A DNA stretch of 64,000 nucleotides from a virus, in the IMG/VR virus record IMGVR_UViG_3300020020_000027, positions 1 through 64,000 of that record; one strand, 5' to 3'. Positions 1-6,029 of the stretch are shown in pieces. How positions within the stretch are numbered: position 1 is the first letter of the stretch; every line of letters begins with the position of its first letter. The position numbers and the translations under genes are program-made. The notes under the pieces were generated by a model. That model was not told where the DNA came from. It searched no databases and saw nothing but the letters and a program-made list of their open reading frames with translations.

Positions 1-187
1 CCCATTAGTTCGGTTGGCTTGAGGACAAAAAAGAATGGTCGTGCGTGCTTACAAAGCCTCAAGCGATAGAAGGTAAGTCGTATGATCTGTGGGGAGAACC
101 CACGGTATTCACGCCGCGTGAAGCATGAAACAAAGACTTGCCTTCTCCTAAAAGTCCTTTGAGAATTACACAGTGGAGCTGATGAAA

Positions 188-267
188 AGCAGCAGACTGA
201 ATTGGGTATCGGTTATCATTTATTGGAAAATGAAACAATCCCGATCCCTACCTACTTGTTTGCTGCT
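188..267 (+). ncRNA. Y RNA copy 1 (minimal form)
   Basis: Terminal stem AGCAGCAGAC/GTTTGCTGCT, ACTGA and CTTGT motifs, GGTTATC, upper stem GGG-ATCGG/CCGATCCC; Ro60 gene at 4401. Confidence 0.8.
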
Positions 268-270
268 CTT

Positions 271-344
271 GGTGGTTATGGTGTACCGGAAGTGCACGGC
301 GGGATGTGACCCCGCAAGTCTGGGTTCGACTCCCAGTAATCACC
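271..344 (+). tRNA. tRNA-His(GTG)
   Basis: G-1 plus GTGGTTA/TAATCAC acceptor, anticodon arm GCGGG-ATGTGAC-CCCGC, T arm CTGGG-TTCGACT-CCCAG. Confidence 0.9.
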
Positions 345-347
345 CAA

Positions 348-469
348 AATTGTTCAACTGAATTGTGAATTGGTGATCACCACTAGATCGGGTCCTTGGA
401 AGATAGGTAAAGATCTTCGCTTGGCTATGCCAAGTGACCACTCCAATTCCTGTAACTTGTTGGACAATT
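348..469 (+). ncRNA. Y RNA copy 2 (three-way-junction insert)
   Basis: AATTGTTCAAC/GTTGGACAATT stem, ACTGA, GGTGATC, CTTGT; insert GGTC/GACC closing two hairpins. Confidence 0.75.
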
Positions 470-495
470 CATATAGCTTCAAGTAATCCACCAAA

Positions 496-610
496 GTGTT
501 GGACTGAAATGGAATTGATTATCAAGAGTCCGCAAGTATGCAAAAACTTGGCCTTGAAGCTACCCCGCCACAAGGTAGGACAAATCGATACCAGCAATCT
601 TGTTTGACAC
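496..610 (+). ncRNA. Y RNA copy 3 (three-way-junction insert)
   Basis: GTGTTGGAC/GTTTGACAC stem, ACTGA, GATTATC, CTTGT; insert GTCC/GGAC closing CAAGT/ACTTG and CCTTG/CAAGG. Confidence 0.75.
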
Positions 611-619
611 ACAAAACAT

Positions 620-758
620 GGGTAGGTGGTTCGCGGGTGAAATTCCCGACCTGTTTGGTAGTGTCATAGTCTGACGGCACAGGAATGGCACGTGACAGAC
701 AATGGTAAGTCCGTCTAAGCTACTAAAGCAGTGGGTGGTTCGATTCCCCCTATACCCG
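620..758 (+). ncRNA. tRNA-like structured element (acceptor and T arm, long non-canonical body)
   Basis: GGGTA/TACCC ends, GG-TTCGATT-CC T loop, long helix CTGTTTGGTAG/CTACTAAAGCAG, extra CGGG-TGAAATT-CCCG hairpin. Confidence 0.45.
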
Positions 759-761
759 CGC

Positions 762-857
762 TGCTTGACTGAATGAATTCGGTTATCGGTGAAATAGAAG
801 GAAGCTCGATATATTGAGCGTCTATTATAATTCCGAATTTAACTCACTTGTTAGGCA
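762..857 (+). ncRNA. Y RNA copy 4 (hairpin insert)
   Basis: TGCTTGAC/GTTAGGCA stem, ACTGA, GAATTCGG/CCGAATTT upper stem, GGTTATC, CTTGT. Confidence 0.8.
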
Positions 858-883
858 CACAAAGGCCCGCGACCCTCGGGGAC

Positions 884-956
884 AATGCTTGACTGAACGG
901 ATATTGGTTATCACACAGCCAAAGTTAATCCGATATCCACGTGCTTGTTAAGCATT
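884..956 (+). ncRNA. Y RNA copy 5 (minimal form)
   Basis: AATGCTTGAC/GTTAAGCATT stem, ACTGA, GGATATTGG/CCGATATCC upper stem, GGTTATC, CTTGT. Confidence 0.8.
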
Positions 957-971
957 ATTAAATTAAATAAC

Positions 972-1043
972 AATGTTGGACTGACGAGGATTGGTTATCT
1001 CTCTTTAAGATTCCTCCGATCCGTGTTTTACTTGTTCGACATT
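972..1043 (+). ncRNA. Y RNA copy 6 (minimal form)
   Basis: AATGTTGGAC/GTTCGACATT stem, ACTGA, GGATTGG/CCGATCC upper stem, GGTTATC, CTTGT. Confidence 0.8.
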
Positions 1044-1126
1044 TATAAGACTTCTTGCGTTACCTGCATCCCGCAAGGAGAAGGAAGGGTGTTGGGATAG
1101 GAGAAAGACTCCAATGCCCTTCCGAT

Positions 1127-1200
1127 CTGGATATAGCCTAACTTGGTAGGGCACTAGCTTTGGGAGCTAGAGATTACAGGTTCGAATCCTGTTATCCAGA
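1127..1200 (+). tRNA. tRNA-Pro(TGG)
   Basis: CTGGATA/TATCCAG acceptor, CTAGC-TTTGGGA-GCTAG anticodon arm, ACAGG-TTCGAAT-CCTGT T arm. Confidence 0.95.
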
Positions 1201-1380
1201 CGGTATGTCTTTTAATTGTTGTGTAGAGATATTCCTAGCGTTTGCTGCTACAAACACTAAAAGCATGTGTCCAGTAGTTCAATAAGATATTGATTGCTAG
1301 GTCATTCAAATCGATATTGCGAACGAACAGACAGGGCAGGTGAAAAGACCTGGGTAAAGTAGCCTGCCCCCAACTAAGCT

Positions 1381-1598
1381 CCCAATGTGTGATGTTTTCT
1401 CCCGCTCGGGGTAAGTTCCGCTAGGGTCACTACTCATCACACATTGGGGTTAAACCCCCAATACATAGACATTCCAATGCGGGTGCGCCGAACAATTTGG
1501 ATTGGGATACGCTGTGTATTGGGCTAAACGCCCAATGTGTGATGGACTGTTCATTTTTCAGGGTTAGTTCAGCCTACCTTAGACCATTACACATTGGG
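1381..1598 (+). repeat. Three tandem 67-68 nt hairpin units (CCCAAT...ATTGGG) with TAAA linkers
   Basis: Units at 1381-1448, 1457-1523 and 1531-1598; 12-15 bp terminal stems, variable interiors. Confidence 0.8.
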
Positions 1599-1790
1599 TT
1601 AAAAGCTCCTGGCTGTCCGGCTGGAGATCGGGCGGACCTACATGTCTGGTAGGTTAACTCCATGTCTGGTACCGTACATGGCCCAAACGGTACACTACAA
1701 ATGGGAACGTGACATAGGCTTGGGATGTCACACGTATCAGGTGTGTTTAGTGCCTAGTAATAGGTCTTGGGTTTGCCTGATTAAAGTTTT

Positions 1791-1875
1791 GGGGATGTTG
1801 GCGTAATGAGGAGTTGGCACCGAATCCACAGTAATTGTGGTTGCCCTTGCGTAGGTTCGAATCCTACTGTCCCCT
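1791..1875 (+). ncRNA. tRNA-like element (intact acceptor and T arm, no canonical D or anticodon arm)
   Basis: GGGGATG/TGTCCCC acceptor, GTAGG-TTCGAAT-CCTAC T arm; irregular helix ending CCACA-GTAAT-TGTGG. Confidence 0.6.
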
Positions 1876-1876
1876 C

Positions 1877-2016
1877 GATGTTGGACTGAGTTATTATCGG
1901 TTATCATCTAACTACTAATTAGAAGGTCCAGGTTCGAATCCTGGTCGGCCCACGGGGGCCGATGGTGTAATGGATAGCACAAGAACTACTCGATAATAGA
2001 CAACTTGTTCGACATC
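1877..2016 (+). ncRNA. yrlA: YrlA-type Y RNA (copy 7) with circularly permuted tRNA domain
   Basis: GATGTTGGAC/GTTCGACATC stem with ACTGA, GGTTATC and CTTGT; internal order is anticodon-like arm TCTAA-CTACTAA-TTAGA, T arm CCAGG-TTCGAAT-CCTGG, closed acceptor TCGGCCC/GGGCCGA, D arm GTG-TAATGGATAG-CAC. Confidence 0.9.
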
Positions 2017-2032
2017 AGAAAATGGAGTTGTC

Positions 2033-2185
2033 ATGAAAGTTGTATACATTCTAGCGGGAATCTTAACGGTAATAATAGCCAGCGGATTCACCATTTGGAT
2101 TGGATACATATTAGTAAATGGAATGCGAAAAAGAATAGCGCGAATCAATCAAACGCGAAAAGACAAGCAAATACGGAGGTTCTAG
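2033..2185 (+). CDS. Small membrane protein (50 aa)
   Basis: GGAG RBS; MKVVYILAGILTVIIASGFTIWIGYILV TM segment plus basic tail; stop overlaps next GTG; below the ORF-track cutoff. Confidence 0.65.
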   Translation: MKVVYILAGILTVIIASGFTIWIGYILVNGMRKRIARINQTRKDKQIRRF

Positions 2186-3186
2186 TGAAGAACACCCGTC
2201 GCTATGTCGCAATTCTTGCCGGAACTGGCATTGCATTGGGACTTGGCGCGTGTAGTACAACTTCCGAGCCTGATAAGGTTGGGCTGTACTACATGGAGGG
2301 TCCATCCGATGGGTACCAGTTTGGTGAGTGCATTCAGCCAGGCAAAACCGGTTCACCCGAATGGAATAATTCTGTAGTATATTTGCCGACAAGCCTACGC
2401 ACGTGGGTTATCGACGATATGCCAGATCCAACAGACCCACTAAATAAGTCTGTCATTGCTCCTGGTGCTGACTCAGGAAATGTCACGGTAGTTTCGGCAA
2501 AGCCTGAGAAGGACCAGCCATCAGGTGTTCAGGTAAAGATTTCTACTAAGACATCTTTCTACCTCAACACTTTTTGCGATAAGAGTGGTGGCAAGGCAAA
2601 GGAATTCTGGGAGAAAATCGGACGACGATACTTTGCGGATACGGACAAGGGATGGAAGGACATGTTGGAGGCAGAAATGACTCCAATACAGAACACCATT
2701 ATCAAGGACGTGTCCCGCAACTATAGTGCAGATCCATTCATCGCCAATGCAAATGGCGAACAGAATGAAGCACAGAAGACAATATCGGAACGTCTCGCAG
2801 TGGAATTCAACCGGCTTGCTGGAGGACAATTCTTCTGTGGTCCCACATTTAATCGAGCATCGGACACCTGTCCAGCACTTGAAATGCTTATTATCGGCGT
2901 GGAATATGCCGATCGTGGCATTCAGGCAGCAAGAAATGAAAAGCAAAAGGCAGTTGAACTTGCCGCGGCGAAGTTGGCCGAAGCACAGGGTATAGCTGCC
3001 GCCCTGGTGGCAGAAGCACAAGGCAAGCGCGATGCCGCCAACGCTGTGGGCGCACTGTACAACTCGCCTGGATGGGTGGCCTTGCAAAAGCAAATCGAGG
3101 CAGGCAAGGCACTTATCGAAGCCTGCAAGCAGGCCAAGGAATGCCGACTTATTGTTGGCGCCGATGGCACGCTGATAATGCAATAA
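2185..3186 (+). CDS. SPFH/band-7-like lipoprotein
   Basis: GGAGGT RBS before GTG at 2185; lipobox LGAC; C-terminal Ala-rich coiled coil; resembles actinophage band-7 proteins. Confidence 0.7.
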   Translation: MKNTRRYVAILAGTGIALGLGACSTTSEPDKVGLYYMEGPSDGYQFGECIQPGKTGSPEWNNSVVYLPTSLRTWVIDDMPDPTDPLNKSVIAPGADSGNVTVVSAKPEKDQPSGVQVKISTKTSFYLNTFCDKSGGKAKEFWEKIGRRYFADTDKGWKDMLEAEMTPIQNTIIKDVSRNYSADPFIANANGEQNEAQKTISERLAVEFNRLAGGQFFCGPTFNRASDTCPALEMLIIGVEYADRGIQAARNEKQKAVELAAAKLAEAQGIAAALVAEAQGKRDAANAVGALYNSPGWVALQKQIEAGKALIEACKQAKECRLIVGADGTLIMQ

Positions 3187-3448
3187 ACTTCCTGGTGTGG
3201 GACAAGCTTCCTAGGAAGCTTTCGACCCAACTCGCAGGAAATAAAATTGAGTATTGAATATAAACTTCCTGCTGTTGACGGGCCGGGAAGGGTGGAAAAC
3301 GAAGTCTGGTGTGGAATACCGGGTTCTTAACGATGGAGAACAGGTCCAGATGAAGAGGTGCATATAGTGGCACCCATGCGGCAACTTCCACAATAAACTT
3401 CTCCGTGATGGAGGGGTTGGGGAAATGGCAGTTAGCTGACTGCCTGGT

Positions 3449-3521
3449 CGAGGAGATGTTTTGCGGCATCATGGTTAAAGGGTCTCGTAAGCCCGAGGGG
3501 GTTCGAATCCTCCATCCTCAC
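3449..3521 (+). pseudogene. Degenerate tRNA-like element with Thr(CGT) anticodon loop
   Basis: GGGT-CTCGTAA-GCCC, GGGGG-TTCGAAT-CCTCC T arm, partial acceptor GAGGA/TCCTC; no valid D arm. Confidence 0.4.
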
Positions 3522-3602
3522 GCTTGATTCATGGCTTTCGGCGGTTATGATATAAGGGTACCTAAAGTCACCCTCCGAACAATATGGGTGCGTTGAGCGT
3601 AA

Positions 3603-3674
3603 GCGTTATTAGTGTTAATGGGAACACATCTGCCTTCCAAGCAGAAGTTGTGGGTTCGAATCCTACATAGCGCA
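3603..3674 (+). tRNA. tRNA-Gly(TCC)
   Basis: GCGTTAT/ATAGCGC acceptor, TCTGC-CTTCCAA-GCAGA anticodon arm, canonical T arm. Confidence 0.93.
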
Positions 3675-3817
3675 CGGGGAATCCGAAGTGATTTAATTCC
3701 TATATGGCAGATCCACGGACGGGAATTAGTCAGATGGTATAGCTGGCCATTGCACCTATGCACCCCCCGTGGAGGAGGTGCTCAAGGATTCCTCACCATC
3801 CAAATAAAAGGACAGCT

Positions 3818-4054
3818 ATGAACACTTACATTGTAACCTATAAACATCAAATCAAAAATAAAGAACATGACCCTAAGAACAAAGTAACTAATAAATGCAC
3901 TGCATCGAATGTATGTACAGATTCAACGGGGGAGCATCATTCTTTCTTGGCAGAAGGAATAACTACACTAGAACTGAAAGAACGACTTACACAGGCTGGA
4001 ATGCATATCACAAGAATAGAACTAGCAACAATGGTGAGGAAACTCCACCACTGA
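3818..4054 (+). CDS. Hypothetical protein
   Basis: AAGGA RBS before ATG at 3818; Cys/His pattern C..C..GEHH. Confidence 0.6.
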   Translation: MNTYIVTYKHQIKNKEHDPKNKVTNKCTASNVCTDSTGEHHSFLAEGITTLELKERLTQAGMHITRIELATMVRKLHH

Positions 4055-4060
4055 ATAAAG

Positions 4061-4134
4061 CGCCAGGATGTCTCGCTTGACTGCGCAGTTACGAGACGGT
4101 GTGGAAGCAGTAGGTTCAACTCCTACCCTGGCGG
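4061..4134 (+). ncRNA. tRNA-like element (perfect acceptor and T arm, single hairpin body)
   Basis: CGCCAGG/CCTGGCG, GTAGG-TTCAACT-CCTAC, body GTCTCG..CGAGAC. Confidence 0.65.
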
Positions 4135-4326
4135 CGACCCGTTTTGGCAGTTTGTCGGATAGTGTAAGTCGTCAGCGCCCAATAAGATTCTGTTCTTATT
4201 CCTTTTAATGGGAAGACCGCTCAGATGTCGAGCTTGGTGACTATAATCAAACTGCCCATCCTGCGCTCACAGGATGTGTTTTAACACTCCGTATTTCTGG
4301 TAGTGTGGTGAAACAGGCCGTTAAAA

Positions 4327-4361
4327 GATAATGGAGCTGGTCGTTACCCAGCTCCATTATC
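4327..4361 (+). promoter_or_regulatory. Perfect 14-bp hairpin upstream of Ro60
   Basis: GATAATGGAGCTGG/CCAGCTCCATTATC; terminator or processing site unresolved. Confidence 0.5.
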
Positions 4362-4400
4362 CAAATTCTTGTTACTTTTAAAAGTGACTGTGAGGAAAAA

Positions 4401-6029
4401 GTGCCTAACTACCTTCACAAGCATCTGACTACGGATACTCCGCAGACGGAACCGGAGAGTCCTCTCCAGGTTGCCAACTCTGCTGGAGGTTTTTCTTTTC
4501 AGGTGAATCCCATCGATCGATTGATGCGCTTCCTTATCCTCGGTTCCGAGGGTGGTACGTATTACATCGGCGAGAAGGATTTGACTAAGCAGAATCTGGA
4601 CAATCTCAAGCACCTTACCGAAACTAATCCTTATACAGTAATTCATAAGGCGCTTTTAGTTTCTGATGAAGGACGAGCGTACCGCAACGATGCCGCCATT
4701 CTTGCCCTCGCTTACGTGATGACGTTTGGTGACGACAAGGCCAAGGCTTATGCTCGCGGTCATGTCAAAGATATTGTGCGTACGTCCTACCATCTTTTCC
4801 AGTTTGAGTCTTTCCTTAAGGCTCTTGCTCCTGGATCAGGCTTGGGAACGTCGAGAAACCGAGCAATCGCCTCTTGGTACGAGGCAAAGACACCCGAAGA
4901 CATCGCTTACCAGGCGGTCAAGTACCGTCAGCGGCTAGGCTGGACGCACGCGGATAGCCTACGCCAGTCTCGGCCACAGTTTTACACTGATTTGTACCAT
5001 GATGTAGCAAAGTGGATTCTTGGCAAGTACACGGGTGATCTCACTCAATTGCCAGACATCATTCGCGACTTTGAGGAAGTACAAAAGGCCGATGATGTCA
5101 CGAATGTTCTTGCTATCATGGAATGGGCCAAGCTTCCTTGGGAGGCTTTGCCTACCAAGTTCCTGAAGAACCCAGAGATTTGGCACAAGCTGTTCTATAC
5201 TGGCCAGCTTAAGGGACAAGCACTGGTGCGAAACATCACTAGGCTGGCTCGAATAAACGCGTTTGATGATCTGGTATTCACCGAGAATTATGCAAATGCA
5301 CTTACCGATGAGAATATGATCAAGCGGACGCGTTTGCATCCACTTAATTTCCTCAACGCATTGGTGGTGCACACTGAAGGTCAGAACCAGCACAAGAAGC
5401 CTGACTGGATGTACTTCAGCCGCAAGATAAAGGATTGGACGCAAAGTCCCATTATTACCGACGCATTGGATGCTGGTGTTCATTTGGCGTTCAAGCACAT
5501 TGAGCCAACCAACAAGCGCACTTTGCTTGCCGTGGATGTTTCTAGCTCAATGTCATCCTCGATCGGTATGGGTCTTGACTTAAGTGCAGCACAAATTTCC
5601 GGGGTAATGGCAGCAGCCATTGCCAAAACCGAGCCATACTACCAAATCATGGGATTCGCAAGCACATTCAAGGATTTGGGTATCTCGGCCGACATGAGTC
5701 TTACCACAGTCATGAACAAGGTACAACAGATGAACTTCGGTTCTACCAACTGTGCTTTGCCAATGACGTGGGCCACGGAGGGTGAGAAGAAATTCGATAC
5801 ATTCGTGGTCCTTACCGACAACGAGACTTATGCCGGATCTGTGCACCCCCATATCGCTTTACAACAGTACCGAAAGAAGTCAGGCATCGACGCTCGACTA
5901 ATCGTCGTTGGTGTTGCCTCAAACGGCTTCACCATTGCCGACCCCAATGATTCTGGCATGCTCGACGTTGTAGGGGCAGATGCCAATTTGCCTAAGCTCA
6001 TTGCTGAGTTTAGCTCAGGCAGGATTTGA
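4401..6029 (+). CDS. rsr: Ro60 (TROVE + vWA) Y-RNA-binding protein
   Basis: NSAGGFSF..RLMRFLILGSEGGTYY, AVKYRQRLGWTHAD, MIDAS DVSSSM, TDNET, FTIADPNDSGMLDVVG. Confidence 0.97.
   Translation: MPNYLHKHLTTDTPQTEPESPLQVANSAGGFSFQVNPIDRLMRFLILGSEGGTYYIGEKDLTKQNLDNLKHLTETNPYTVIHKALLVSDEGRAYRNDAAILALAYVMTFGDDKAKAYARGHVKDIVRTSYHLFQFESFLKALAPGSGLGTSRNRAIASWYEAKTPEDIAYQAVKYRQRLGWTHADSLRQSRPQFYTDLYHDVAKWILGKYTGDLTQLPDIIRDFEEVQKADDVTNVLAIMEWAKLPWEALPTKFLKNPEIWHKLFYTGQLKGQALVRNITRLARINAFDDLVFTENYANALTDENMIKRTRLHPLNFLNALVVHTEGQNQHKKPDWMYFSRKIKDWTQSPIITDALDAGVHLAFKHIEPTNKRTLLAVDVSSSMSSSIGMGLDLSAAQISGVMAAAIAKTEPYYQIMGFASTFKDLGISADMSLTTVMNKVQQMNFGSTNCALPMTWATEGEKKFDTFVVLTDNETYAGSVHPHIALQQYRKKSGIDARLIVVGVASNGFTIADPNDSGMLDVVGADANLPKLIAEFSSGRI

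What the first reader, a model, noticed from the sequence alone, without database searches (positions are those of the whole stretch)
267..1877. tRNAs and tRNA-like elements punctuate the Y RNA array
Seen: tRNA-His starts 4 nt after copy 1 and ends 4 nt before copy 2. The 620-758 element lies between copies 3 and 4 and ends 4 nt before copy 4. The 1791-1875 element ends 2 nt before copy 7. Established: RNase P and RNase Z read mainly the acceptor/T-arm half of a tRNA. Inference: these elements are cleavage signals that release individual Y RNAs from one polycistronic transcript, as in mitochondrial tRNA punctuation.
Basis: partly seen in the sequence, partly recalled or inferred. Interest (0 to 1): 0.7.

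Follow-up and report, generated by a model that had tools for sequence, protein, structure and literature searches.

The report
tRNA-flanked Y RNAs in a phage
A soil phage that encodes the RNA-binding ring protein Ro60 packs seven of its likely partner "Y RNAs" head-to-tail with real tRNAs and non-decoding tRNA look-alikes, spaced so tightly that the cell's tRNA-trimming enzymes probably cut several Y RNAs free; this extends an arrangement already shown in Deinococcus rather than being a new principle.

Summary
A covariance model finds exactly seven Y-RNA-like copies in the 75-kb genome, all at 188-2016 and upstream of a Ro60/TROVE gene on the same strand. tRNA-His sits 4 nt after copy 1 and 3-4 nt before copy 2. 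A 139-nt element (620-758) ends 3 nt before copy 4. An 85-nt element (1791-1875) ends 1 nt before copy 7. Random placement gives four such junctions with P about 3.5e-5.

The His-to-Y and element-to-Y7 junctions recur in two related phages. The element in front of Y7 belongs to a different non-decoding tRNA-like family in each genome. tRNAs and look-alikes share end signatures: T before the RNase P site, C at position 74, no encoded CCA.

tRNA punctuation is not the general release route. One relative has five Y-Y junctions of 2-10 nt with no tRNA, other junctions are loose, and some Ro60 phages have Y RNAs but no tRNAs. The look-alikes also have conserved interiors, so they are probably RNAs with their own function.

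Chen et al. 2014 showed a Yrn2-tRNA-Asp-Yrn1 precursor in Deinococcus. This scan has noted phage Ro60/Y-RNA arrays among tRNA genes on other DNA. No RNA data exist.

The parts
188..267 (+). Y RNA copy 1. The terminal helix has a bulged U (GAC[U]GA paired with CUUGUU) and is followed by the GGUUAUC motif.
   Evidence: R1 79.4 bits; fold z = -4.6
271..345 (+). tRNA-His(GTG) with encoded G-1 (271), discriminator C344 and C74 at 345. No CCA is encoded.
   Evidence: ARAGORN and RF00005 at 47.2 bits; ends read
349..468 (+). Y RNA copy 2 (5' motif variant AACUGA). It starts 4 nt after the tRNA-His discriminator.
   Evidence: R1 38.9 bits; fold z = -3.1; orthologue after tRNA-His in L003
469..494 (+). 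Spacer whose 3' part (AGTAATCCACCAAAG) resembles the 3' end and trailer of tRNA-His. Probably a relic of a lost tRNA in front of copy 3.
   Evidence: Alignment A3. In L123 the orthologue of copy 3 directly follows tRNA-His.
495..611 (+). Y RNA copy 3
   Evidence: R1 42.0 bits; fold z = -2.7
620..758 (+). 139-nt tRNA-like element. It has an acceptor stem (6/7 pairs), a T arm (4/5 pairs, loop UUCGAUU) and an expanded interior of unresolved structure. T precedes its 5' end and C follows its discriminator.
   Evidence: 92% identical to L003:2543-2681 at the same array position. No Rfam match. ARAGORN calls it only at relaxed thresholds, with a 51-nt 'intron'.
760..858 (+). Y RNA copy 4 (paired stem 762-857). 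It starts 3 nt after the discriminator of the 139-nt element.
   Evidence: R1 44.7 bits; stem found
884..956 (+). Y RNA copy 5 (short form), not next to any tRNA
   Evidence: R1 67.5 bits
972..1043 (+). Y RNA copy 6 (short form), not next to any tRNA
   Evidence: R1 66.5 bits
1046..1123 (+). Two stable hairpins. The second ends 3 nt before tRNA-Pro. L123 has a Y RNA at this position and L003 has another hairpin.
   Evidence: Fold z = -4.4
1127..1201 (+). tRNA-Pro(TGG), canonical
   Evidence: RF00005 70.5 bits
1791..1876 (+). 85-nt non-decoding tRNA-like RNA plus C74. Its acceptor stem (7/7 pairs) and T arm (5/5 pairs) are intact. The 'anticodon' hairpin has a 5-nt loop.
   Evidence: The body is 91% identical to L123:6701-6765, with compensatory changes in the acceptor and T stems.
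1877..2016 (+). Y RNA copy 7, YrlA-like. Inside it are an anticodon-like hairpin (1907-1923), a T arm (1928-1944), a loop-closed 7-pair acceptor stem (1945-1962) and a D arm (1965-1980).
   Evidence: R1 47.5 bits; fold z = -4.5. The arm order matches the YrlA layout described in bioRxiv 10.1101/312249.
4401..6029 (+). Ro60/TROVE + vWA protein gene (542 aa), the presumed partner of the Y RNAs
   Evidence: PF05731 matches of 50 and 46.7 bits; homologues carry PF05731 and PF25045

Best explanation
The window's first 2 kb is part of one densely packed, co-transcribed RNA-gene cluster of a soil phage, probably one that infects actinobacteria. The cluster holds seven Y RNAs (partners of the phage Ro60), decoding tRNAs (His, Pro), several families of non-decoding tRNA-shaped RNAs, and other hairpin RNAs.

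Where a Y RNA abuts a tRNA or tRNA-like element, host RNase P cuts at the 5' end of that element. The host tRNA 3'-end machinery (RNase Z or equivalent, acting on CCA-less precursors) cuts after its discriminator or C74. These two cuts create the neighbouring Y RNA's 3' or 5' end within 1-4 nt of its closing helix. In the window this applies to the 3' end of Y1 and the 5' ends of Y2, Y4 and Y7.

The remaining Y ends (Y2/Y3, Y4/Y5, Y5/Y6, the 3' ends of Y6 and Y7) must be made another way. The likely route is endonuclease cuts in the A/C-rich spacers, followed by exonuclease trimming that stops at the closing helix or at bound Ro60.

Shown here: the anatomy, its conservation, the shared end signatures and the non-random spacing. 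Inferred: co-transcription, which enzymes act, and all cleavage sites.
For: 1. Y RNA identity. There are seven R1 hits and none elsewhere in the genome. Closing helices covary between copies. A Ro60 gene lies 2.4 kb downstream on the same strand. R1 finds 31 further hits in 77 other Ro60 phage loci, all on the Ro60 strand and mostly within 1.1 kb upstream of Ro60.

2. Tight junctions. Four Y/tRNA-like junctions of 4 nt or less, P about 3.5e-5 under random placement.

3. Conservation. His to Y is 4 nt in the window, L003 and L123. The tRNA-like element before Y7 is 1 nt away in all three, yet it is a different family in each: 85 nt with a 5-nt loop, 84 nt with an extended anticodon arm, and 78 nt called 'tRNA-???' by ARAGORN. 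Other junctions: Y to His 4 nt in L123, Y to Pro 4 nt and Trp to Y 2-3 nt in L123, Y to Gly 2-3 nt in L004. In more distant Ro60 phages (40-50% Ro60 identity), a tRNA starts 4-5 nt after the Y RNA at four loci and a Y RNA starts 3 nt after a tRNA at one.

4. Same spacing rule as tRNA-tRNA junctions in these phages: 69 of 618 gaps are 5 nt or less, with modes at 0 and 4.

5. End signatures shared by tRNAs and tRNA-like elements. C at position 74 in 31 of 34 (11 of 13 tRNA-like elements). T immediately 5' of the RNase P site in 10 of 13 tRNA-like elements. None encodes CCA.

6. No sigma-70-like promoter or terminator on the + strand within the array. A single conserved 45-nt motif sits upstream of the cluster's first tRNA (Met) in all four genomes and occurs nowhere else in the window.

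7. Precedent in Chen et al. 2014, PMC4201824. Deinococcus Yrn2, tRNA-Asp and Yrn1 derive from one polycistronic precursor. M. smegmatis YrlA and YrlB derive from one precursor, and its YrlA is cut by RNase P.
Against: - No transcript data of any kind. Only soil-metagenome DNA runs hold the sequence.
- The host and its promoters are unknown, so the promoter scan is weak evidence.
- Tight spacing may simply reflect compact RNA-gene packing. L123 has Y-Y gaps of 2-10 nt with no tRNA.
- Two of the window's tight junctions are loose in L003: Y1-His 58 nt, and 139-nt element to Y4 27 nt.
- The 139-nt element has a mismatch in both its acceptor and T stems, so it may be a poor RNase P/Z substrate.
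- Homologous pairs of tRNA-like elements are not independent counts in the end-signature tally (about 8 families, not 13).
Confidence: 0.62

Rival explanations
1. Adjacency is a by-product. The tRNAs are there only for translation and the tRNA-like elements are decaying pseudo-tRNAs. The tight spacing reflects compact packing and a history of tandem duplication of [tRNA + Y] units, with no selected role in Y RNA maturation. Y RNAs would be released by a tRNA-independent route everywhere.
For: - Y-Y junctions of 2-10 nt with no tRNA in L123, and loose junctions in L003.
- Y RNAs with no tRNA in the fetched stretch of six distant Ro60 phage loci.
- A relic of a tRNA-His 3' end in front of copy 3 shows that a tRNA can be lost while the Y RNA stays.
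- tRNA-tRNA gaps show the same 0-4 nt spacing.
Against: - If the units are co-transcribed, cuts at the tRNA ends necessarily define the abutting Y ends, whether or not that is selected.
- The element before Y7 was replaced by unrelated tRNA-like families while the 1-nt spacing stayed fixed.
- tRNA-like elements keep intact acceptor and T helices through compensatory changes, and keep T(-1) and C74. That is not what decaying pseudogenes do.
Confidence: 0.2
2. The tRNA-like elements are functional small RNAs whose main job is not processing. They could be tRNA decoys or substrates linked to Ro60-based RNA surveillance or repair, or decoys against host tRNA-targeting defences. Their position beside Y RNAs would serve co-expression. 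This is compatible with the best explanation and differs only in what selection acts on.
For: - The interior of the 85-nt element is 91% identical to L123:6701-6765, which lies at a different site with a different acceptor sequence.
- The 139-nt element is 92% identical over its whole length to L003.
- At least two further conserved families lie near Ro60: window 4061-4134 and 3418-3521, with L123 counterparts.
- Y7 itself carries a complete permuted tRNA-like module.
Against: - No function can be assigned.
- The family is absent from L004 and from more distant relatives.
- The element before Y7 is not the same family across genomes. That fits a generic tRNA-shape requirement better than a specific interior function.
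Confidence: 0.3
3. Each Y RNA is its own transcription unit with its own promoter. The tRNAs play no part.
For: Host promoter types are unknown, so the negative consensus scan cannot exclude promoters. Copies 5 and 6 have 15-25 nt AT-rich spacers upstream.
Against: - Gaps of 1-4 nt before Y2, Y4 and Y7 would put any promoter inside the preceding tRNA or tRNA-like element.
- No terminators follow the Y RNAs.
- Characterised bacterial Y RNAs are processed from precursors (PMC4201824).
Confidence: 0.05

Closest known systems
Deinococcus radiodurans Yrn2-tRNA-Asp-Yrn1 polycistronic precursor; M. smegmatis YrlA/YrlB single precursor (Chen et al. 2014, RNA 20:1715, PMC4201824)
   Same: Y RNAs lie upstream of Ro60 on the same strand with a tRNA between them, and they are made from one precursor. 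tRNA-processing enzymes act on Y-RNA loci (RNase P cuts M. smegmatis YrlA).
   Different: - Here there are seven Y RNAs rather than two.
- The setting is a phage.
- Non-decoding tRNA-like RNAs sit at some junctions in addition to real tRNAs.
- The Ro-binding motif is GGAC[U]GAA rather than GNCGAA.
- Processing here is only inferred.
YrlA-type Y RNAs (Rfam RF02553; structure in bioRxiv 10.1101/312249)
   Same: Copy 7 has a Ro-type closing helix plus a T arm, a loop-closed acceptor stem and a D arm, in the YrlA order. It lies within 4 kb of Ro60 on the same strand.
   Different: - The RF02553 model does not hit any copy; its best match in the genome is 14.9 bits against a 69-bit threshold, and it lies elsewhere.
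- Copy 7 also carries a separate anticodon-like hairpin.
- Six of the seven copies lack the tRNA-like module.
Mitochondrial tRNA punctuation (Ojala et al. 1981; reviewed in PMC3790967, seen by title and abstract only)
   Same: tRNA-shaped units within a polycistronic RNA, whose excision by RNase P and RNase Z creates the ends of the neighbouring RNAs.
   Different: In mitochondria nearly every gene boundary is marked. Here only about a quarter of Y RNA ends are, and relatives show that unmarked Y-Y junctions work.
tRNA-like 3'-end or 5'-end signals: MALAT1/mascRNA (Wilusz 2008, cited in 10.1101/312249), MHV68 tRNA-miRNA units, plant tRNA-snoRNA genes, phage T4 tRNA-cluster 'species 1 and 2' RNAs (the last three from my own knowledge)
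   Same: Non-decoding or ordinary tRNA shapes recruit RNase P or RNase Z to release an adjacent non-coding RNA. The T4 case is also a phage tRNA cluster with co-processed small stable RNAs.
   Different: The released neighbours here are Ro60-partner Y RNAs. None of these systems involves Ro60.

Membership tests
tRNA (Rfam RF00005) | Score at or above the 29-bit gathering threshold of the tRNA covariance model | tested here: met
   This row covers tRNA-His (47.2 bits) and tRNA-Pro (70.5 bits) only.
tRNA (Rfam RF00005) | Same threshold, applied to the 620-758 and 1791-1875 elements | tested here: not met
   620-758 has no tRNA hit at E up to 10. For 1791-1875 only the T arm aligns, at 14.4 bits. 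Default ARAGORN calls neither.
tRNA (decoding) | 7-nt anticodon loop on a 5-pair stem | tested here: not met
   1791-1875 has a 5-nt loop (4 nt in its L123 homologue). 620-758 has no assignable anticodon arm.
RNase P / RNase Z substrate shape (acceptor-T minihelix) | 7-pair acceptor stem stacked on a 5-pair T stem with a UUCRANY loop | tested here: met
   1791-1875 has 7/7 and 5/5 pairs. 620-758 has 6/7 and 4/5, so it meets this only weakly. Actual cleavage cannot be tested with these tools.
Bacterial/phage Y RNA (YrlA, RF02553; Chen 2014 criteria) | Match to the RF02553 covariance model (69 bits) | tested here: not met
   No hit on any copy. The best match in the genome is 14.9 bits, over tRNA-Pro.
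Bacterial/phage Y RNA (YrlA, RF02553; Chen 2014 criteria) | Encoded within about 4 kb of a Ro60 orthologue on the same strand | tested here: met
   Copies lie at 188-2016 and Ro60 at 4401-6029, all on +. Copy 1 is 4.2 kb from the Ro60 start.
Bacterial/phage Y RNA (YrlA, RF02553; Chen 2014 criteria) | GNCGAAN0-1G motif near the 5' end, within a helix formed by the paired 5' and 3' ends | tested here: inconclusive
   The terminal helix is present and covaries. The motif here is GGAC[U]GAA, not GNCGAA. More distant relatives found with the same model R1 do carry GNCGAA (GAGCCGAAG, GGGCCGAAGG).
Bacterial/phage Y RNA | Bound by Ro60 | not testable with these tools
   Needs co-immunoprecipitation or a gel-shift assay.
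tRNA punctuation (mitochondrial type) | tRNAs mark most gene boundaries of one polycistronic transcript | tested here: not met
   4 of 14 Y ends in the window lie within 4 nt of a tRNA or tRNA-like element (14 of 60 within 9 nt in four genomes). L123 has five unmarked Y-Y junctions.
tRNA punctuation (mitochondrial type) | One precursor transcript cleaved by RNase P and RNase Z | not testable with these tools
   No RNA runs hold the sequence.

The most novel reading that the evidence does not exclude
These phages keep non-decoding tRNA-shaped RNAs as dedicated, interchangeable processing marks. Any tRNA-shaped cassette will do, provided its discriminator and C74 sit exactly one base before the closing helix of the YrlA-like Y RNA. 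That would explain why three unrelated tRNA-like families occupy this slot in three genomes. It would be a bacterial-virus counterpart of mascRNA or MHV68-type tRNA-guided RNA release, coupled to assembly of the Ro60 RNA-protein complex.
Probability: 0.3. Interest if true: 0.6.

Novelty: new variant of a known kind. Interest (0 to 1): 0.45.

Why it matters
If confirmed, it would show how a phage turns one transcript into a set of different Ro60 partner RNAs by borrowing the host's tRNA-end machinery. It would also add several families of non-decoding tRNA-shaped RNAs to the phage RNA repertoire. The end rules seen here could guide annotation of RNA ends in phage tRNA clusters: T before the 5' cut, C at position 74, and a closing helix 1-4 nt away. 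The principle itself, Y RNAs co-processed with a tRNA, is already established in Deinococcus, so the gain is in scale and detail rather than concept.

Tried and rejected
- Rfam over 1-6000 (E up to 1), over the whole window at gathering thresholds, and over the two elements alone (E up to 10). Only the tRNAs were found; there were no Y_RNA or YrlA hits.
- INPHARED nucleotide search of 1-2100. Only tRNA-Pro matched.
- Pattern scan of viral contigs for GGACTGA...GGTTATC. It gave 118 single chance-like hits and was not used.
- An exact 24-nt motif of the 139-nt element in viral contigs re-found only L003's contig.
- A metagenome scan for the tRNA-like-to-Y7 junction re-found only the L003 and L123 lineages.
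About 35 closer Ro60 homologues from Logan/ENA contigs could therefore not be examined.
- Sequencing runs: no RNA holder was listed. There were only two soil-metagenome DNA runs plus one run with a small share.
- ARAGORN with introns and relaxed thresholds forces 620-759 into a 'tRNA-Thr' with a 51-nt intron, and 1703-1876 into a 'tRNA-Ala' with a 79-nt intron. I judged both unreliable.
- Constrained and two-sequence consensus folding did not settle the interior structure of the 139-nt element.
- Pfam scan of ten neighbouring ORFs found replication and recombination genes (SNF2 helicase, PD-(D/E)XK nuclease, AAA_24, primase-polymerase) and no RNA-processing enzyme.
- One script call returned no answer and was rerun. 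Two review papers were not held.
Full report
**What the window is.** The window is bases 1-64000 of a 75,156-bp IMG/VR virus record that CheckV rates as complete. The only sequencing runs that hold it are soil-metagenome DNA. A 542-aa Ro60/TROVE + vWA protein is encoded at 4401-6029 on the + strand. Its closest cultured relatives are the 'Ro-like RNA binding proteins' of Streptomyces BE-cluster phages, at about 49% identity. Many Mycobacterium, Gordonia and Microbacterium phages follow. The host is therefore probably an actinobacterium; this is an inference.

**The Y RNA array is real.** By eye and by script, the copies share three features:
- a closing helix formed by the 5' and 3' ends, with a bulged U (GAC[U]GA opposite CUUGUU);
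- a second helix ending in YGGUUAUC / CCGAU;
- a variable interior.

The closing helix has a different sequence in every copy but always pairs, for example AGCAGCA/TGCTGCT, AATGCTT/AAGCATT and GATGTTG/CGACATC. I built a covariance model (R1) from nine short copies of the window and two relatives. It finds exactly seven copies in the whole genome: 188-267, 349-468, 495-611, 760-858, 884-956, 972-1043 and 1877-2016, at 39-79 bits. Each copy folds better than shuffled controls, with z from -2.7 to -4.6.

R1 also finds 31 hits in 77 other phage loci fetched through their Ro60 genes. All are on the Ro60 strand and most lie within 1.1 kb upstream of Ro60. The more distant hits carry the published bacterial Y-RNA motif GNCGAA (motif from PMC4201824).

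Copy 7 contains a T arm, a loop-closed 7-pair acceptor stem and a D arm in the YrlA order, plus an anticodon-like hairpin (layout in 10.1101/312249). ARAGORN's 'tRNA-Ser(act)' at 1883-1953 is a miscall of this module. Rfam's YrlA model (RF02553) does not reach any copy, so these copies resemble YrlA in architecture but are not members by that model.

**Checking the observation.** tRNA-His (272-344, with G-1 encoded at 271) begins 4 nt after copy 1, and copy 2 begins 4 nt after its discriminator. The 139-nt element at 620-758 lies 8-9 nt after copy 3, and its discriminator is 3 nt before the paired stem of copy 4. The 85-nt element at 1791-1875 is separated from copy 7 by the single base C1876.

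Both elements have a tRNA-type acceptor stem and T arm. These are intact in the 85-nt element and carry one mismatch each in the 139-nt element. Neither element scores as a tRNA. The 'anticodon' hairpin of the 85-nt element has only a 5-nt loop, so it cannot decode.

Shuffling the order of the eleven elements and redistributing the 755 spacer bases gives four or more Y/tRNA-like junctions of 4 nt or less in 7 of 200,000 trials.

**Relatives.** Three related phage lineages carry the same kind of cluster:

| Locus | Ro60 identity | Y copies found by R1 |
|---|---|---|
| L003 | 76% | 6 |
| L123 (L214 and L215 are near-identical) | 74% | 10 |
| L004 | 63% | 7, plus one more seen by eye |

The junction table shows what is kept and what is not.

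Kept:
- tRNA-His to the next Y is 4 nt in the window, L003 and L123.
- A tRNA-shaped element sits 1 nt before the YrlA-like last copy in all three. The junction sequence N73-C-GATGT is identical.
- Y to His is 4 nt in L123.
- L123 also has Trp to Y (2-3 nt) and Y to Pro (4 nt). L004 has Y to Gly (2-3 nt).

Not kept:
- L003 has a 58-nt hairpin-bearing insert between Y1 and tRNA-His, and 27 nt between the 139-nt element and Y4.
- L004 has no tRNA-like element before its YrlA-type copies.
- L123 has five Y-Y junctions of only 2-10 nt with no tRNA.

In more distant Ro60 phages, a tRNA starts 4-5 nt after the Y RNA at four loci and a Y RNA starts 3 nt after a tRNA at one locus. Six loci have Y RNAs and no tRNA in the 9-16 kb fetched for each. 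tRNA-tRNA gaps in these 84 loci show the same spacing habit: 69 of 618 are 5 nt or less, with modes at 0 and 4.

**What the tRNA-like elements are.** The slot before copy 7 is filled by three unrelated elements:
- window: 85 nt, 5-nt 'anticodon' loop;
- L003: 84 nt, normal D arm, extended anticodon arm; ARAGORN calls it 'Asn';
- L123: 78 nt; ARAGORN calls it 'tRNA-???'.

The body of the window's 85-nt element is 91% identical to L123:6701-6765. That copy lies at a different place (near Ro60) and has a different acceptor sequence. The acceptor and T stems differ by compensatory pairs (G-C to A-T, U·G to G-C, U-A to C-G), and the short loop is kept at 5 versus 4 nt. This is therefore a conserved, non-decoding, tRNA-shaped RNA family and not a decaying pseudogene. 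The 139-nt element is 92% identical to L003:2543-2681 at the same array position. Its interior fold could not be settled.

Further families of this kind lie closer to Ro60. Window 4061-4134 matches L123 6796-6868, with compensatory changes. Window 3418-3521 matches L123 6217-6305.

**Shared end signatures.** I examined 34 tRNAs and tRNA-like elements in the four genomes.
- None encodes CCA.
- Position 74 is C in 31 of 34, and in 11 of 13 tRNA-like elements. The background C frequency is about 23%.
- The base just 5' of the expected RNase P cut is T in 10 of 13 tRNA-like elements and 11 of 21 tRNAs. The background T frequency is 26%.

C1876, between the 85-nt element and copy 7, is therefore that element's C74, and copy 7 starts at what would be position 75. 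Homologous pairs inflate these counts, since there are about eight independent families. Even so, the look-alikes carry the same end context as the real tRNAs, which suggests the same enzymes handle them. A preference of bacterial RNase P for U at -1, and RNase Z acting on CCA-less precursors, are established knowledge that I recall rather than tested.

**Transcription.** No sigma-70-like promoter or intrinsic terminator was found on the + strand within the array; the one terminator-like hit, at 804-819, is an internal hairpin of copy 4. This is weak evidence because the host's promoter type is unknown.

The cluster wraps around the contig ends. The last 150 bases of the record hold tRNA-Met and the start of another small-RNA family, collinear with L003 and L123. 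About 25 nt upstream of that tRNA-Met, all four genomes share a 45-nt motif with a covarying hairpin. It occurs nowhere else in the window. It is a candidate promoter or leader at the head of the cluster.

**Mechanism.** The most likely picture is one long precursor. RNase P and the tRNA 3'-end machinery excise the tRNAs and tRNA-like RNAs and so create the abutting Y RNA ends, 1-4 nt from the closing helix. The other Y ends are made by other nucleases and trimmed back to the helix or to bound Ro60. Copy 7, with its 7-pair closed acceptor stem, resembles M. smegmatis YrlA, which RNase P opens (PMC4201824). It may be cut the same way; this is an inference.

It is also not new in principle. Chen et al. 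2014 showed a Yrn2-tRNA-Asp-Yrn1 polycistronic precursor in Deinococcus and a common precursor for YrlA and YrlB in M. smegmatis.

**Novelty and score.** Three things go beyond the literature I could read:
- the scale (7-10 Y RNAs per phage);
- the several non-decoding tRNA-shaped RNA families with tRNA-type end context;
- the fixed-distance slot before the YrlA-like copy, filled by different families.

Earlier notes of this scan report phage Ro60/Y-RNA arrays among tRNA genes on several other genomes, so the general arrangement is recurrent. I rate this a new variant of a known kind, with interest 0.45. Everything about cleavage remains inference until RNA ends are mapped.

Noticed in passing
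window 67-150; also L003:2079-2157 and 1894-1980, L004:3793-3878, L123:1375-1465, G000:C1 about 75076-75156: A second conserved small-RNA family. It has a covarying closing stem, then GTATGRT, a YWGGGGAGAWCCYWR-type hairpin, a second hairpin, and CAYGAAACAAAG. In L003 and L123 and at the end of this contig it directly follows tRNA-Met. It has no Rfam match.
   Followed up: partly
window 1381-1598; L003:3838-3895; L123:3737-3789: Three tandem hairpins of about 68 nt (CCCAATGTGTGATG...CATCACACATTGGG type) with variable loops. Single counterparts exist in L003 and L123. The L123 hairpin ends about 4 nt before tRNA-Lys.
   Followed up: partly
window 4061-4134 and 3418-3521: Two more tRNA-shaped, non-decoding RNAs between the array and Ro60. 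The first is 75 nt: acceptor stem, one long hairpin and a T arm. The second is 105 nt. Both are conserved in L123 (6796-6868 and 6217-6305), with compensatory stem changes. ARAGORN and Rfam miss both.
   Followed up: partly
G000:C1 about 74914-74990 (L208:3915-3990), upstream of tRNA-Met at 75004-75072: A 45-nt motif, AGTGGTCACCAMAGGGTCC.TAT.CTGGT.GGGGTTAGGCCAG, with a covarying hairpin. It is conserved upstream of the first tRNA of the RNA cluster in all four related phages and is unique in this genome. It is a candidate promoter or leader element.
   Followed up: partly
contig ends (window 1 and G000:C1:75156): The RNA-gene cluster is split by the ends of the record. tRNA-Met and a truncated family-B RNA lie at the very end, and the cluster continues at base 1. 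Compared with L003 and L123, a stretch appears to be missing between them, including a 92-nt tRNA-like element.
   Followed up: partly
window 1883-1953: ARAGORN and Rfam call a 'tRNA-Ser(act)' (35.3 bits) here. It is the tRNA-like module of Y copy 7, read together with the Ro-binding strand as a false acceptor stem.
   Followed up: yes
window 2033-2176 and 2176-3186: A 47-aa hydrophobic ORF starts 16 nt after copy 7, with a GGAG ribosome-binding site. It is followed by a 336-aa ORF with a lipoprotein-like N-terminus and no Pfam match. The RNA array may therefore share a transcript with mRNAs.
   Followed up: no
window 1701-1790: This stretch begins ATGGGAACGT, like the 5' end of a 100-nt tRNA-like element of L123 (4694-4793), but it lacks the T arm and the 3' acceptor strand. 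It is probably a remnant of that element.
   Followed up: no
34 tRNA and tRNA-like genes in the window, L003, L004 and L123: C at position 74, often followed by G, in 31 of 34, with no encoded CCA. The meaning of this trailer signature for 3'-end processing is unknown to me.
   Followed up: partly
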